64,000 bases of DNA. Source: an uncultured Acetobacteraceae bacterium. Lineage in GTDB: Bacteria > Pseudomonadota > Alphaproteobacteria > Acetobacterales > Acetobacteraceae. Under the pieces are notes generated by a model. The model searched no databases, was not told the origin of the DNA, and saw nothing but the letters and a program-made list of their open reading frames with translations. Both the position numbers and the translations under genes were made by a program. Where the stretch lies: the NCBI GenBank assembly GCA_964242575.1, contig CAXTCN010000012.1, forward strand, positions 3,204-67,203, read 5' to 3'. Below are positions 60,032 to 63,952 of this stretch, piece by piece; the first letter of the stretch is position 1; each line of letters opens with the position of its first letter.

Positions 60032-60559
60032 ATGGTTCAGGACAACACAGGCTTGAGCGCCGCCGGCGTCGTGGCGTTGAACCTGGCGCCCGAGATCGGC
60101 CGCTGGCTGTTTGGCCCGGACGCGGCGCAGGTGGCGGCGGCGGTGCAGTCGGCGCTCGTTGCCACGACCGGCACCGCCGACCCGGCCGCCCAGGTCGCCG
60201 CGCTGGAGAACTCGGACACCGCGGCCGCGCTCCGCGTGGCGCTGGCCGCCATCGCCGACGCCCACGCGGCAGCGGCGGACACGGCTGGCGCGCAGGCGGC
60301 GTCCGCGCTTTCGCAGGACCGTAGCCCGATGGCCTGGGGCGCGCCCATCGTGAGCGTCGTGGTGCTGGTGACGTTCGGCGCCGTGGTGTCCATCGCGCTG
60401 TTCCGCCCGGTGCCCCCGGCGTCGGAGGCGATGCTGAACGTGCTGTTGGGCACGTTGGGGGCGATGGCGACCAGCGTGGTGGCCTACTGGGTGGGGTCGT
60501 CCGTGGGCAGCGCGCGGAAGGACGAGCGGCTGGCGCGGCTGGTGGAGCGGGAGCGTTAG
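60032..60559 (+). CDS. Holin-like protein (GTA/3-TM holin type)
   Basis: The C-terminal half has hydrophobic helices (APIVSVVVLVTFGAVVSIALF, LNVLLGTLGAMATSVVAYWVG). Follows the endolysin. Confidence 0.55.
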   Translation: MVQDNTGLSAAGVVALNLAPEIGRWLFGPDAAQVAAAVQSALVATTGTADPAAQVAALENSDTAAALRVALAAIADAHAAAADTAGAQAASALSQDRSPMAWGAPIVSVVVLVTFGAVVSIALFRPVPPASEAMLNVLLGTLGAMATSVVAYWVGSSVGSARKDERLARLVERER

Positions 60560-63102
60560 GCCGCTTTGGTCCCGCCATGGACCGGGTACCGCGACACCCA
60601 CGACGCCAGCCTGCCCATCGGCCTTGCGTCGTGGCGCGCCAGCATGGCCGGGTTCGCGAACACGACGAAGCTGTCCTTGGCACGGGACACTGCCACGTTC
60701 AGCAGGTTCGGCTTCTGGTCAAGGAAGCCGGTCGCGGCGGGGTTCGTGGCACAGACCGAAAACACCACCACCGGAGCCTCGGCGCCCTGGAGCCTGTGCA
60801 CGGTTCCCACGATCAAACCATCCAAAGCGGCGTAATCGCCCGCGAGGGCCTCGCGGATGCGGTTGTCAAGCAGCTTCGCATGCGCACGGTACGGCGTGAC
60901 GAACGCCACCGCCCGGCCAAGCGGCCCATACTTGTCTTCGATGGCCGCGCGGTTTTGCCGCAGCCATTGGACAATGGCCTCGGCCTCGATGGGGTTCTGC
61001 TGCGATCCACCGGAGGGCCGCTCCGCCACGCTGGGCACCGCGATGTGGCCGACGGGCTGGATCGGACCGGTCTCAGTGAGTTTCCGGTGCGTGGTCATGC
61101 GCCCCTCGTAAACCACCTCGTTGCACCAGCTGATGATTTGCGGCAGGCAGCGGTAATGCCTCGACAGCATGACCGGTTTATGAGCGCTGACGCGCTCGGC
61201 CATCAGCATGGCGCTGCCCTTGGAAATCGATCCAGCGCCCTCGGCAAGCGCCAGGTCCGGCCCCCGAAGGCGGCACGCGGTCCGGAGGAAGCGGTCGCCT
61301 GCTGGGGTTTCGGACCACACGGGGTCGAGTTGCTTCGTGTCGCCGACGATGAGCGCACGCCGGGCTAGCGCAAGCGAGGCCGAAACGATCTCCGCCGGCG
61401 CCTGGCCCGCCTCGTCGACGATCAACAAGTCAGCCGCGCCCCAAGCTTGGTTGCGATAGGCAGATGCAAAGCGCGGAAGCGAATGGGCCGTGGCCACCAC
61501 GCAGGGCGCCAGCATCAGCATGGGGCCGATTTCCTCGCGAAGACGGTCGATAGCCTTGGCCGGCGGCTGGTACATGGCATTCGAGCGTATGGCCTGTTCG
61601 CGCCCTTGCAGGTGCAGCAGGAATCTCGCCTCCCAATACCGCGCAGCCAAGTGGAACGCCTCAACCCTCGGCCCCACGTCGATCGCGTCCTCAAGCGCGT
61701 GGAAGGCGGCAAAACCGTCGGGTAAGTCTCCCGTTTCCAGTTTCCGCGCCAGTTCGATAAAGGTGGATCGCTGTGCGCCGCCGCCGAGCAGCCGCCCGGC
61801 CAAATCCACGAAACCCCGGGACGCCGCCGCAAGCATCGAACTCGCGGCAAGCCATCGCGACCACCGCGCCGCGACCGTTTCCATGGCGGCAACACGGGTT
61901 TGGGCGTCCGCAAGCCGCTCGTAATGCCCGGCGATCTCAGTTTTGGTGGCGTCCAGCAGCGTCAATGCCGCCGCGGCGTCGTCCTCCATGCCAAGGGGGA
62001 TTTGCGGCATCAGCAGACGCGCTTGCCGGACGGCGGCGACCGCCTGGGTGCGCTCGCCCCGCCCCGTAAACAGGCGCCGCAGCTTGGACCAAAACGTTCG
62101 CGGCGGGCTCAGGGCCGTGACCGCGCGCTCCAGCCCATCTCGCCTCTCCTGCCACCCGGCAATGGCTTGCGCTTGCGCCCGTTCATCGTTCCGGGCTTGT
62201 GGAAGCTCGGCCGCCATGGCCTCGTCGCCTGCCAAAAGCTGCTGTCGCGCGAGGCGGCTCGCGTCGAGCAGGGGCAGGAGCTTGCGGAACCCGGCACGCA
62301 CCGCGCGCTGCTTGCCAACCACGTCCGAGACGGCGCTGCGCAGGAGCCGCGTTGCGCTTAACAGGTCAATGGCAGCGTCGCCGGTGAACGCCCGGCACTT
62401 TTCCAGCCAAGCCGCGGCCACAGGCCCAACGTCGCCCGTCTGCATCCCGCTCGCGCTGCCATGGGGCGTGGGCAGGGCAGGGCGGTCCATGGATGGGCTG
62501 GCCTCCCGGATCAGCAGCTGGAACCGCCCCCAATCCTGCCGGTCCCGTTCGGCTTGCGGGCGGTCTCGTGGCGGGAGCTTGGCAAGGTCGGTCGTAAACG
62601 CGCGCGCAATGCGCCCGCTCGGGGCGAACCAGCCATATGAGGCGATGTCCGGCAACCAGCGGGCGAACACATCCGCATCGTCATGCAACGCGGCAACCCC
62701 ATCAAACCCGCCGATGACGTTGGTCACCGCCTTATTCGTGGCGGCGGTCGCAAGGATGAGCGCGGGGGCAGGGCTTGGCGCGCTGCTGAGCAGCGGGTCC
62801 GTCATCGCCGATGCGGCCACGGCCCGCATCATCGAGGTTTTGCCAGTGCCGGGCGGTCCCTGGACGGCCATGATATCCGACCGCGACGCAGTAAGCACGG
62901 CGACGCGCTGCGACGACTCAAGGGGAAACGCCACGCGTCCCATCCCAGCCGCCTTTGGGTTGCTGTCCATGTGCGCGACATGGCCGTCCGCCGCGTCCAG
63001 CAGCGCCCGGAGGTCTAGTTCCGGCTGCCGGGTCGCATCCGGGCCGGTCCAGCAGCCCCGGTTTGGCTGGCATGCGCAGGACAGCGTCGTAAAGGCCCGC
63101 AA
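60556..63102 (-). CDS. Superfamily 1 helicase, Upf1/DNA2-like (AAA_11/AAA_12)
   Basis: Walker A VQGPPGTGKT, large insertion, then LIVDEAGQAP, VGDTKQLDPV, LSRHYRCLPQI, GTVHRLQGAEAPVVVFS and NVAVSRAKDSFVVF. Confidence 0.85.
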   Translation of the reverse strand: MRAFTTLSCACQPNRGCWTGPDATRQPELDLRALLDAADGHVAHMDSNPKAAGMGRVAFPLESSQRVAVLTASRSDIMAVQGPPGTGKTSMMRAVAASAMTDPLLSSAPSPAPALILATAATNKAVTNVIGGFDGVAALHDDADVFARWLPDIASYGWFAPSGRIARAFTTDLAKLPPRDRPQAERDRQDWGRFQLLIREASPSMDRPALPTPHGSASGMQTGDVGPVAAAWLEKCRAFTGDAAIDLLSATRLLRSAVSDVVGKQRAVRAGFRKLLPLLDASRLARQQLLAGDEAMAAELPQARNDERAQAQAIAGWQERRDGLERAVTALSPPRTFWSKLRRLFTGRGERTQAVAAVRQARLLMPQIPLGMEDDAAAALTLLDATKTEIAGHYERLADAQTRVAAMETVAARWSRWLAASSMLAAASRGFVDLAGRLLGGGAQRSTFIELARKLETGDLPDGFAAFHALEDAIDVGPRVEAFHLAARYWEARFLLHLQGREQAIRSNAMYQPPAKAIDRLREEIGPMLMLAPCVVATAHSLPRFASAYRNQAWGAADLLIVDEAGQAPAEIVSASLALARRALIVGDTKQLDPVWSETPAGDRFLRTACRLRGPDLALAEGAGSISKGSAMLMAERVSAHKPVMLSRHYRCLPQIISWCNEVVYEGRMTTHRKLTETGPIQPVGHIAVPSVAERPSGGSQQNPIEAEAIVQWLRQNRAAIEDKYGPLGRAVAFVTPYRAHAKLLDNRIREALAGDYAALDGLIVGTVHRLQGAEAPVVVFSVCATNPAATGFLDQKPNLLNVAVSRAKDSFVVFANPAMLARHDARPMGRLASWVSRYPVHGGTKAA

Positions 63103-63952
63103 TGGCTTGCACCGGGCCCGCCGCTGTCTCCACCGGCACGAGCCGCGTCATCAAGGGCGTCCGCCCCGCCATGGCGCCCGGCGCACGCCCCAAGTCCTGC
63201 TGCAAGGGATCCACGCCCGTCACCTCCCGTAGCAGGCCGAGGCCACGCCCGATCCACTCCGCAAGGCTTTCTGCATCCGGCAGATCCACCGCCTTGGCAG
63301 TCCAGGCCTCCGCCGCCTCCAAGGCGCCGATGTCCGTCTCTTTCGGTTCAGCGCCGGGTTGCTCCAGGTAGCTGGCGTTGAGGCGTGGGAGGGCGTCGCC
63401 CGGCACCGCGATGCGGAACTTGTCCTGATTCAGCGGCTCTGGCTCGACCAGCAACGGCACCGCGAGCAGCACGCTGGGGCGGCCCGCAAAACGGCCCACC
63501 AGCAGCAAATGCTGGCCCTCCCCAAAGCTGTCGTCCTCTGGAAGTTCGGTCTCGTCCCAGATGGCGCGGTCCGGGCCAACCGGGTCAGCATCCTTCGCCA
63601 AGGCGTCGAGGTTCTCATTGCCGATCGCGTTTCGCCAATACCCGATTACGGTGCCAGCCCCGGCGGCGCGGCGGACCTCGCTGGACGGGCGGTACATCCA
63701 CCGCTCGAAGCCATTGGTCGCAACTCCAGCGGGGATAAACCAGTGCTTCACGCTGCGATCCCAGCCGGCGCCCCGGTCCTTTGCGGCGTCCTTTTCAGAA
63801 AACGGAACGTTAAGCCAAACGCCACCGTCTCCCCGCGACGGAGGAGGGGTCCTGCGCGTTGCGGCGTGCCGCTTGCCGGTACGGCCGTTCGAAACTCCTT
63901 GGCCCATCCACACTACCTCTCTGGCACGCCAAGCGTATTGAGGAGAAGTCAT
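62918..63952 (-). CDS. DUF5710-like N-terminal domain protein, probably the 5' part of the helicase gene
   Basis: VWLNVPFSEKDAAKDRGAGWDRSVKHWFIP is the DUF5710-type motif seen at N-termini of primases and helicases. The last ~45 codons look out of frame, and the ORF overlaps the helicase ORF by 185 nt. Confidence 0.55.
   Translation of the reverse strand: MTSPQYAWRAREVVWMGQGVSNGRTGKRHAATRRTPPPSRGDGGVWLNVPFSEKDAAKDRGAGWDRSVKHWFIPAGVATNGFERWMYRPSSEVRRAAGAGTVIGYWRNAIGNENLDALAKDADPVGPDRAIWDETELPEDDSFGEGQHLLLVGRFAGRPSVLLAVPLLVEPEPLNQDKFRIAVPGDALPRLNASYLEQPGAEPKETDIGALEAAEAWTAKAVDLPDAESLAEWIGRGLGLLREVTGVDPLQQDLGRAPGAMAGRTPLMTRLVPVETAAGPVQAIAGLYDAVLRMPAKPGLLDRPGCDPAAGTRPPGAAGRGGRPCRAHGQQPKGGWDGTRGVSP

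What the first reader, a model, noticed from the sequence alone, without database searches (positions are those of the whole stretch)
60556..63952. DUF5710-like domain plus Upf1-like SF1 helicase read as two ORFs overlapping by 185 nt: likely one ~1150-aa gene with a +1 frame change, convergent on the prophage lysis cassette
ORF 62918..63952 starts with a DUF5710-type motif (VWLNVPFSEKDAAKDRGAGWDRSVKHWFIP) and reads like protein up to ...GLYDAVLRMPAKPGLLDRP. It then turns into Gly/Arg/Pro noise. ORF 60556..63102 starts with implausible sequence (TTG; MRAFTTLSCACQPNRGCWTGP) and becomes protein-like from DATRQPELDLRALLD. It carries a complete SF1B/Upf1-like motif set, with a ~470-aa insertion between Walker A and DEAGQ. 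The two good segments meet at the GC run GACCGGCCCGGATGCGACC (about 63030-63048) and differ by +1. This points to a single-base indel (mutation or sequencing error) or programmed recoding. The gene ends back to back with the holin gene: the stop codons overlap as TTAG at 60556-60559 with no terminator between them. Large stand-alone Upf1-like helicases at prophage ends are found both in phage replication modules and in helicase-based anti-phage systems, and this N-terminal combination is not one I can name.
Basis: partly seen in the sequence, partly recalled or inferred. Interest (0 to 1): 0.6.

Follow-up and report, generated by a model that had tools for sequence, protein, structure and literature searches.

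The report
Broken nuclease-less Mokosh-like helicase gene
The two overlapping reading frames are one 1119-codon gene for a rare helicase related to the Mokosh type II anti-phage protein; it lacks Mokosh's nuclease, carries a small DUF5710 domain at its head, and in this genome is disabled by what looks like an 8-base deletion.

Summary
ORF 62918..63952 (DUF5710, Pfam 59 bits) and ORF 60556..63102 (Upf1-like SF1 helicase) overlap by 185 nt and differ by +1. All four complete relatives found (46-67% identity) are single polypeptides of about 1100-1130 aa, so this is one gene, most likely starting at ATG 63907.

The break is probably not a one-base indel. Frame A reads the conserved PGLLDR and frame B the conserved WTG from the same eight bases, TGGACCGG (63044-63051). 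This fits loss of one copy of a tandem 8-mer. Read through that way, the protein aligns without gaps and keeps 339 of 357 clade-invariant residues, which points to recent inactivation. Programmed recoding is unlikely: relatives are in frame there, and a second broken relative is broken elsewhere.

The protein matches PADLOC's MkoC model (E 2e-138 here, 6e-143 for the intact relative P0001) over its N-domain, helicase and coiled-coil arm. It ends where MkoC's PLD nuclease would begin. In a tree it falls in a branch of Toprim-tailed and effector-less relatives. The clade is very rare.

The gene abuts the right end of a myovirus-like prophage but has a different base composition. Function is inferred, not shown.

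The parts
60556..63907 (-). Whole (disrupted) gene for a DUF5710 + MkoC-like SF1B helicase. It gives 1119 codons when read through the break.
   Evidence: Single-polypeptide homologs. tblastn of P0001 gives two abutting matches in different frames, query residues 3-290 and 289-1114. The read-through aligns without gaps.
63695..63820 (-). DUF5710 domain (VWLNVPFSEKDAAKDRGAGWDRSVKHWFIP...).
   Evidence: Pfam PF18974, E 3.8e-16, 59 bits, cut-off 26.5. The fold is beta-alpha-beta-beta with pLDDT 76-94 in the N-terminal model. It matches DUF5710 proteins of phages and giant viruses in BFVD.
63044..63655 (-). Family-specific N-terminal alpha/beta domain shared with MkoC-type helicases.
   Evidence: In intact relatives the PADLOC MkoC model is covered from position ~106. 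AF2 pLDDT is mostly 75-94. No PDB fold match has E<0.2.
63044..63051 (-). Break point: a single TGGACCGG read as (L)DR in frame A and as WTG in frame B. Inferred remnant of a tandem 8-mer after loss of one copy.
   Evidence: Sequence. Homolog proteins and DNA read ...LL[DG]R WT[GE].... R290 and W291 are invariant in the clade.
62918..63043 (-). Out-of-frame tail of ORF A (PGCDPAAGTRPPGAAGRGG...), 41 codons to the TGA.
   Evidence: It has no counterpart in the homologs. The same DNA in frame B reads conserved sequence, including the HVAHMDS motif.
62836..62859 (-). Walker A / motif I, GPPGTGKT.
   Evidence: nearly invariant columns in alignment A1.
61417..62718 (-). Insertion of about 470 aa between motif Ia and motif II, mostly long helices (coiled-coil arm).
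   Evidence: In the AF2 model of P0001, helices run over residues 495-780 with pLDDT mostly above 85. The region is covered by the MkoC model.
61402..61416 (-). Motif II, DEAGQ (Walker B).
   Evidence: invariant columns.
60559..61401 (-). Rest of RecA1 and RecA2 (HYRCLP, TVHRLQGAE, VAVSRAK) and the natural C-terminus. No nuclease domain follows.
   Evidence: Pfam AAA_12, E 5.8e-24. The C-terminus aligns with those of P0001 and P0002. The MkoC model match stops at 963 of 1136.
60032..60559 (+). Last gene of the prophage (phrog_1544, two hydrophobic segments), convergent with the helicase gene. Stops overlap as TTAG.
   Evidence: Synteny with related prophages in G003 and G043 ends here.

Best explanation
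Positions 60556-63907 (minus strand) hold one gene. Its intact form is a stand-alone protein of about 1119 aa with this layout:
- an N-terminal DUF5710 module;
- a family-specific alpha/beta N-domain;
- a Upf1-like SF1B helicase whose first RecA domain carries a long coiled-coil arm;
- no nuclease domain.

In this genome the gene is inactivated, or at least split. One copy of an inferred tandem TGGACCGG TGGACCGG has been lost at 63044-63051. Such a deletion is typical of replication slippage. It shifts the frame so that translation from ATG 63907 ends after 41 out-of-frame codons at 62918. Everything else in the gene is intact, so the lesion is recent.

The protein belongs to the wider family of Mokosh type II (MkoC) helicases, in which one conserved motor is combined with exchangeable end domains (PLD, topoisomerase-type Toprim, others, or none). 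By inference, the intact protein is an ATP-driven 5'-3' translocase acting on single-stranded nucleic acid of invading or replicating mobile DNA. DUF5710 is a module otherwise found in plasmid Rep and primase proteins and in phage replication proteins; here it would serve as a docking module, not a catalytic one. Most likely the protein acts in conflicts between mobile elements, as defence or exclusion. It was acquired separately from the adjacent prophage, at that prophage's right end.

Shown: gene unity, break position, domain content, absence of a nuclease, family placement, rarity. Inferred: the 8-nt slippage history, the loss of function, and the biological role.

The confidence given (0.7) is for the structural part: one gene, a real disabling lesion, and a nuclease-less MkoC-like helicase. 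For the defence or exclusion role alone I would give about 0.45.
For: Gene unity:
- Four intact single-polypeptide homologs.
- tblastn of P0001 splits into two abutting frames at residues 289/290.

The break:
- Frame A gives PGLLDR and frame B gives WTG from the same 8 nt.
- R290 and W291 are clade-invariant.
- With 8 nt restored, the junction is gap-free and 339 of 357 invariant residues are kept.
- A one-base model would delete the invariant W.

Family:
- PADLOC MkoC E 2e-138 for ORF B and 5.9e-143 for P0001, covering model positions ~106-964 of 1136. True MkoC (P0028) covers 6-1133 and has PLDc_2.
- AF2 model of P0001: pLDDT 83, pTM 0.81. Top PDB fold matches are SETX, Upf1, IGHMBP2 and Aquarius.
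- In the tree, the window groups with P0001 and P0002 (support 99), then with four effector-less relatives (99). All of these sit inside a 78-row Toprim-dominated clade (100) that is separate from the 69 PLD rows.

Context:
- P0004 lies beside Shango SngA/SngB (SngB E 5.8e-172).
- P0001 lies beside a TrwC relaxase.
- Toprim relatives lie beside QatABCD or integrase/TnsA.
- The window copy sits exactly where synteny with related prophages ends. Its GC is 67-70% against 72-77% for the prophage, and GC3 is 0.80 against about 0.92.

DUF5710 as a module of mobile-element replication proteins:
- Rep_3-DUF5710 plasmid initiators (PMC11233732).
- An ArdC-DUF5710-Toprim primase protein in the same genome.
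- Phage Pol III epsilon-like proteins in BFVD.
Against: - An assembly artefact or a mixed population is therefore not excluded.
- The tandem 8-mer is inferred. No relative close enough to show it was found, and P0001 and P0002 use other codons at that site.
- The defence role rests on family similarity and neighbourhood only. The domain that Millman et al. found essential for Mokosh defence (PLD) is absent. No conserved partner gene was found.
- One relative sits among metabolic genes.
- DUF5710 and the relaxase neighbour would fit a role in the mobile element's own replication or transfer equally well.
- The N-domain has no fold relative, so a hidden activity cannot be excluded.
Confidence: 0.7

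Rival explanations
1. The frame break is an assembly or sequencing artefact, or a minority allele. The organism really carries an intact 1119-codon gene.
For: The genome is a 451-contig draft. Reads could not be inspected. The rest of the gene is perfectly conserved. A second relative (L021, from a metagenome assembly) has a one-base G-run insertion of a kind that can be an error.
Against: Loss of a whole 8-nt unit is not a typical short-read or homopolymer error. Assembly k-mers span such a short repeat. Other cargo genes of this prophage region were also noted as decayed (earlier notes e1-3016226 and e1-3016228; not re-tested here).
Confidence: 0.12
2. The split is tolerated. Two proteins are made: a 329-aa DUF5710 + N-domain protein, and a helicase restarted at an internal start. 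Together they act like a two-gene system, as Mokosh type I splits functions over two genes.
For: An in-frame ATG (ORF B Met54, 62941-62943) lies 21 nt upstream of ORF A's TGA, so termination-reinitiation is conceivable. A second relative is also broken in the same linker, about 40 codons downstream. All helicase motifs are intact.
Against: A restart at Met54 would remove the clade-invariant H..HMD motif. No RBS is evident. Four relatives are fused. The two breaks differ in site and type, as expected for random damage in a gene that is costly to keep.
Confidence: 0.08
3. Programmed +1 ribosomal frameshifting, or another form of recoding, joins the two frames.
For: The two frames differ by +1 and overlap.
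Against: The site is in frame in P0001-P0004. No known +1 shift motif is present. Any single-base shift would skip the invariant Trp, which requires 8 more bases. The other broken relative is broken at a different place.
Confidence: 0.02
4. The intact protein is not a defence factor. It is an accessory replication or conjugation helicase of mobile elements, recruited through DUF5710 like the Rep and primase proteins that carry the same module.
For: DUF5710 occurs in Rep_3 initiators, in an ArdC-primase polyvalent protein of this genome and in phage replication proteins. P0001 sits two genes from a TrwC relaxase. P0005 is near a T2SSE/VirB11-type ATPase. No nuclease domain is present.
Against: The motor, N-domain and coiled-coil arm are those of the MkoC defence family, with E values around 1e-140. 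Sister proteins carry Toprim or PLD effector domains and sit in defence islands. The gene is not a conserved part of any element: only one other of 185,579 species genomes has it. Two of about seven known copies are broken, which is typical of costly accessory genes.
Confidence: 0.28

Closest known systems
Mokosh type II, MkoC (Millman et al. 2022, preprint 10.1101/2022.05.11.491447; PADLOC PDLC03924; E. coli YjhR type)
   Same: It shares the family-specific N-terminal domain, the Upf1-like SF1B helicase and the long helical insertion. HMM E values are 1e-138 to 1e-143 over model positions ~106-964. Like MkoC it is a single-gene unit found on mobile elements and in defence islands.
   Different: It has no C-terminal PLD nuclease, which Millman et al. 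found essential for defence. It has an added N-terminal DUF5710. It falls in a separate tree branch from the PLD-bearing proteins. This copy is frameshifted.
Unnamed Toprim-tailed MkoC-like helicases (P0006, P0009, P0014; 1410-1450 aa), found in a conserved four-gene operon
   Same: These are the nearest large sister group in the tree, with clade support 100. They have the same N-domain, motor and arm. Some also carry an N-terminal DUF5710 (P0059, P0169, P0182).
   Different: They end in a topoisomerase-type Toprim domain and are followed by three conserved genes of about 260, 134-144 and 360 aa. The window's clade has neither.
Eukaryotic Upf1-like helicases (Upf1, SETX/Sen1, IGHMBP2, Aquarius)
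   Same: The helicase core has the same fold (Foldseek E 1e-12 to 1e-17) and the same motif set.
   Different: Identity is only 12-14%. The accessory domains are different. The bacterial protein has the MkoC-type N-domain and coiled-coil arm.
DUF5710-bearing proteins of mobile elements (Rep_3-DUF5710 initiators of Acinetobacter plasmids, PMC11233732; ArdC-DUF5710-Toprim primase polyvalent proteins)
   Same: They share the same module of about 44 aa (Pfam PF18974).
   Different: The rest of each protein is unrelated. The function of the module is unknown in all of them.

Membership tests
Mokosh type II (MkoC) | Upf1-like (COG1112-type) SF1 helicase with intact ATP-binding motifs | tested here: met
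   AAA_11/AAA_12 domains. GPPGTGKT, DEAGQ, TVHRLQGAE and VAVSRAK are present. The fold matches Upf1 and SETX. The reading frame upstream of the helicase is broken.
Mokosh type II (MkoC) | Family-specific N-terminal domain and helical insertion, as modelled by PADLOC PDLC03924 | tested here: met
   Model positions 239-963 are matched by ORF B and ~106-964 by the intact relatives P0001 and P0004.
Mokosh type II (MkoC) | C-terminal PLD (HxK) nuclease domain fused to the helicase | tested here: not met
   There is no PLDc_2 hit. The model match ends at 963/964 of 1136. The protein's C-terminus is conserved with P0001 and P0002. By contrast, P0027 and P0028 have PLDc_2 and cover the model to 1132-1133.
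Mokosh type II (MkoC) | Groups with PLD-bearing MkoC proteins in a family tree | tested here: not met
   FastTree of 164 proteins places the window inside a 78-row clade (support 100) of Toprim-tailed and effector-less proteins, with no PLD row. This is a quick tree without bootstrap.
Mokosh type II (MkoC) | Protects cells against phage, dependent on the ATPase and the nuclease | not testable with these tools
   Requires phage challenge of an intact relative.
DUF5710 (Pfam PF18974) | Match to the Pfam model above its gathering score | tested here: met
   59 bits against 26.5, residues 45-86 of ORF A.
Programmed frameshift gene | Frame change conserved at the same site in homologs, with a recognisable shift signal | tested here: not met
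   Four homologs are in frame at the site. The other broken homolog is broken about 40 codons away by a G insertion.
Prophage gene (part of the adjacent myovirus-like prophage) | Conserved synteny with related prophages and matching base composition | tested here: not met
   Related prophages in G003 and G043 match up to window ~60541-60562 and then continue with host-type genes. The helicase gene has GC 67-70% against 72-77% for the prophage. No phage record carries a full-length relative.

The most novel reading that the evidence does not exclude
The DUF5710 clade may be a nuclease-free immune or exclusion helicase. It would borrow the docking module that plasmid initiators, conjugative primases and phage replication proteins use. 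That would let it load onto the replication or transfer intermediates of rival mobile DNA and dismantle them by motor activity alone, or by recruiting a host nuclease. This would be a Mokosh-type sensor-motor retargeted by mimicking mobile-element replication proteins. The repeated breakage of the gene (2 of about 7 copies) would then reflect its cost to the host or to resident elements.
Probability: 0.12. Interest if true: 0.7.

Novelty: new variant of a known kind. Interest (0 to 1): 0.33.

Why it matters
- For annotation: two overlapping public gene calls should be merged into one disrupted gene. P0054 is the 329-aa head. It should not be counted as a working defence system, even though its helicase part scores strongly against the MkoC model.
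- For biology: the locus is one more example that the Mokosh type II motor is a modular chassis. In a sample of 197 relatives, 71 end in PLD, 62 end in a topoisomerase-type Toprim domain, and more than 50 have no recognisable effector.
- DUF5710 is an uncharacterised module common in replication and transfer proteins of mobile elements. It has been attached to this chassis several times, at either end.
- Finding out what DUF5710 binds would explain a widespread domain. It would also show how nuclease-less Mokosh-like helicases can work.
- This particular copy is broken and the clade is very rare, so the finding is a lead, not a discovery.

Tried and rejected
- Close relatives that would show the intact tandem 8-mer: none found in 40 related genomes, in 185,579 species genomes, or in plasmid and phage collections.
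- A word-based search with the N-terminal 330 residues found only P0001 and P0002.
- Single-base indel model: rejected, because it removes the invariant Trp and two more residues, whereas the 8-nt model is gap-free.
- Hidden nuclease in the N-terminal region: the N-terminal model has no significant PDB match, best E 0.26. In BFVD only the DUF5710 part of about 45 aa matches.
- Conserved partner gene for the DUF5710 clade: downstream genes of L011, L014 and L016 are unrelated, and P0005's neighbours are uninformative.
- att sites and tRNA at the prophage end: no convincing direct repeat and no tRNA in the window.
- NCBIfam: no model reaches its cut-off.
- P0003 as a DUF5710-less member: rejected, because its gene call simply starts too late.

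
Full report
**Observation**

The two ORFs are exactly as described. ORF A is 62918..63952 (minus strand, 344 aa). ORF B is 60556..63102 (minus strand, 848 aa). They overlap by 185 nt.

ORF A carries DUF5710 at residues 45-86 (Pfam E 3.8e-16, 59 bits, cut-off 26.5). ORF B carries the AAA_11/AAA_12 signature of Upf1-like SF1 helicases. Walker A (GPPGTGKT) lies at ORF B residues 82-89 and DEAGQ at 563-567, so the insertion between them is 473 aa.

The helicase gene's stop overlaps the stop of the last phage gene as TTAG at 60556-60559. No terminator-like site lies at that junction.

**One gene or two**

A search of the 5.8-billion-protein collection with ORF B found these relatives:
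- P0001: 1119 aa, 66% identity;
- P0002: 1082 aa;
- P0004: 1128 aa, Roseomonas nepalensis EAH89_15670, named 'DUF5710 domain-containing protein';
- P0003: 1048 aa.

Each holds DUF5710, the region that follows it and the helicase in one polypeptide. P0003 seemed to lack DUF5710, but its locus shows the domain in frame just upstream of a start that was called too late.

A six-frame search of the window's own genome with P0001 gives two abutting matches in different frames, at query residues 3-290 and 289-1114. So this is one gene.

Its probable start is ATG 63907, preceded by GAGAGG. That start gives 1119 codons when the break is read through, the same length as P0001. The public gene call for the head (P0054, 329 aa) starts there too.

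**The lesion**

Homologs read ...PGLL[D/G]R-WT[G/E].... In the window, frame A reads PGLLDR-P... and frame B reads ...C-WTGPDATRQPELDL. The codons for (L)DR in frame A and for WTG in frame B use the same eight bases, TGGACCGG, at 63051-63044.

This is what remains if an ancestral CTGC-TGGACCGG-TGGACCGG-CCCG lost one copy of a perfect tandem 8-mer. Loss of 8 nt is equivalent to a +1 frame difference.

With those 8 nt read back in, for alignment only, the junction is gap-free against five relatives. The protein then keeps 339 of 357 clade-invariant positions, and the 18 differences are mostly conservative.

I therefore prefer the 8-nt deletion.

This history is inferred. The closest relatives use other codons at the site and have no repeat there. 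No nearer relative exists in 40 related genomes or in 185,579 species genomes.

The window also lacks three linker residues (QGR/QRR) just upstream. That gap is in frame.

**Real or artefact**

I could not test this. Loss of an 8-nt unit is not a usual short-read error, so I put about 12% on an artefact or minority allele.

**Programmed frameshift**

This is rejected, for three reasons:
- The site is in frame in all intact relatives.
- A single-base shift cannot restore the conserved Trp.
- A second broken relative, found by the exhaustive HMMER search (P0185, locus L021), is broken about 40 codons further on by one extra G in a G-run.

Two of about seven known copies are thus damaged, at different sites. 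That looks like random decay of a dispensable or costly gene.

**What the protein is**

Against PADLOC, ORF B matches MkoC (Mokosh type II, PDLC03924) at E 2e-138. The intact relatives match at about 1e-140. The match always covers model positions ~106-964 of 1136 and stops where the protein ends.

True MkoC proteins (P0027, P0028) cover the model to its end and carry PLDc_2 there. Another large group (P0006, P0009 and others, 1410-1450 aa) carries a topoisomerase-type Toprim domain instead.

Millman et al. define type II Mokosh as helicase plus C-terminal PLD, and found both to be required for defence. The window's protein therefore fails a defining feature and should not be filed as Mokosh type II.

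An AlphaFold2 model of P0001 (pLDDT 83, pTM 0.81) shows four parts:
- a small beta-alpha-beta-beta DUF5710;
- an alpha/beta N-domain;
- two RecA domains;
- a long helical arm at residues ~495-780.

The PDB fold matches are SETX, Upf1, IGHMBP2 and Aquarius.

A separate model of the window's own N-terminal 288 residues (pLDDT 78.5) has no significant PDB match. In the viral library only the DUF5710 part of about 45 aa matches. The matching proteins come from phages and giant viruses, and some are annotated as Pol III epsilon-like. No nuclease fold was found.

**Family structure**

The exhaustive search gave 12,115 hits, 865 of them below 1e-30. Full-length relatives of the DUF5710 type number only three or four clusters.

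I scored 197 collected family members with home-made HMMs for the three end domains:

| End domain | Members |
|---|---|
| PLD | 71 |
| Toprim only | 59 |
| DUF5710 and Toprim | 3 |
| DUF5710 only | 8 |
| None of the three | 56 |

DUF5710 can sit at the N- or the C-terminus (P0060, P0120). Of 28 proteins from the 'none' and DUF5710 groups scanned against Pfam, 28 had the helicase domains and only a few had anything else (TPR, TIR, topoisomerase).

A quick tree of 164 proteins places the window as follows:
- with P0001 and P0002 (support 99);
- then with P0004, P0003 and P0053 (100);
- then with four effector-less proteins (99).

All of these lie inside a 78-row clade (100) dominated by Toprim-tailed proteins and containing no PLD protein. 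This is a FastTree result with local support only.

**Surroundings**

The window holds a myovirus-like prophage: terminase, portal, major head, sheath, fibres and endolysin.

Related prophages in a same-genus genome (G003) and a same-family genome (G043) are syntenic up to window ~60541-60562. After that point they continue with host-type genes, a luciferase-like monooxygenase in one and a GGDEF-EAL protein in the other. The helicase gene therefore starts exactly at the prophage's right boundary.

Its GC content is 67-70% against 72-77% for the prophage, and its GC3 is 0.80 against about 0.92. It was acquired separately.

Contexts of relatives:
- P0004 lies next to Shango (SngB E 5.8e-172, SngA 2.4e-78) and a PDDEXK plus UvrD pair.
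- P0001 lies two genes from a TrwC relaxase.
- P0003 lies among metabolic genes.
- Toprim relatives sit in a conserved four-gene operon beside QatABCD or beside integrase/TnsA.

No partner gene is conserved for the DUF5710 clade.

**How it most likely works (inference)**

The intact protein would be an ATP-driven 5'-3' translocase or helicase of the Mokosh II chassis. Its end module is not a nuclease but DUF5710.

The same module is found in Rep_3 plasmid initiators (PMC11233732), in an ArdC-DUF5710-Toprim primase protein of this very genome (C79) and in phage replication proteins. This suggests docking to replication or transfer intermediates, or to a replisome component.

I give about 45% to a defence or exclusion role and about 28% to a role in the element's own replication or transfer. 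In this genome the gene is most likely non-functional.

**Earlier notes of this scan**

Earlier notes describe other Mokosh-like variants: a HEPN tail, a dead PLD, a nuclease-less form, and an N-domain with no known fold. They agree with the modular picture. I treated them as leads only and re-tested the relevant points here.

**Verdict**

The object is a disrupted copy of a rare, uncharacterised, nuclease-less variant of the Mokosh type II helicase family. Interest is moderate to low.

Noticed in passing
L016:6460-13065; L019:8001-14536: Toprim-tailed MkoC-like helicases (1411-1452 aa) are followed by three conserved genes of about 260, 134-144 and 360 aa. In L016 the last has a weak Topoisom_bac hit. 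The C-terminal Toprim resembles the N-terminus of topoisomerase I. In L019 the operon lies next to QatABCD. In L016 it lies next to an integrase and TnsA. This looks like an unnamed four-gene defence-type system.
   Followed up: partly
L021:384-3693: A second member of the DUF5710-helicase clade, from a metagenome assembly, is split into 373-aa and 747-aa calls. The cause is one extra G (GGG to GGGG) about 40 codons downstream of the window's break.
   Followed up: yes
L015:9839-10000: The public gene call for P0003 starts 54 codons too late and so misses its DUF5710 domain, which is in frame upstream.
   Followed up: yes
genome contig C79:13303-15621 (not in the window): The same genome encodes a polyvalent protein of about 770 aa: ArdC-N, a zincin-like motif (HELGH), DUF5710 and a Toprim primase-like C-terminus. 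This is typical of conjugative elements. Its DUF5710 is 49% identical to that of P0001.
   Followed up: partly
L032:7374-7976 (= window coordinates 64170-64772, just beyond the window): A 200-aa ORF matches glycosyltransferase family 2 only from profile position ~75-80 onwards. It is a 5'-truncated remnant lying between the helicase gene and host genes.
   Followed up: partly
L032:15453-16556 and L032:13923-13998: An MmeI-type DNA methyltransferase domain (E 3.7e-24) lies at the end of the contig, and a tRNA-Thr(TGT) lies about 7 kb beyond the window. They may mark the edge of a larger variable region.
   Followed up: no
P0060 (886-928), P0120 (1067-1107), P0059, P0169, P0182: In other MkoC-like helicases DUF5710 sits at the C-terminus, or at the N-terminus together with a C-terminal Toprim domain. 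The module has been attached to this chassis more than once.
   Followed up: partly
L014:1-6692: The Roseomonas nepalensis homolog lies beside a complete-looking Shango system: a TerB-type SngA, SngB, and a DEAD-box helicase in the position of SngC.
   Followed up: partly
window 63062-63070 region (protein level): The window lacks three linker residues (QGR/QRR in P0001 and P0002) just before PGLLDR. This is an in-frame gap next to the frame break, so the linker is length-variable.
   Followed up: partly
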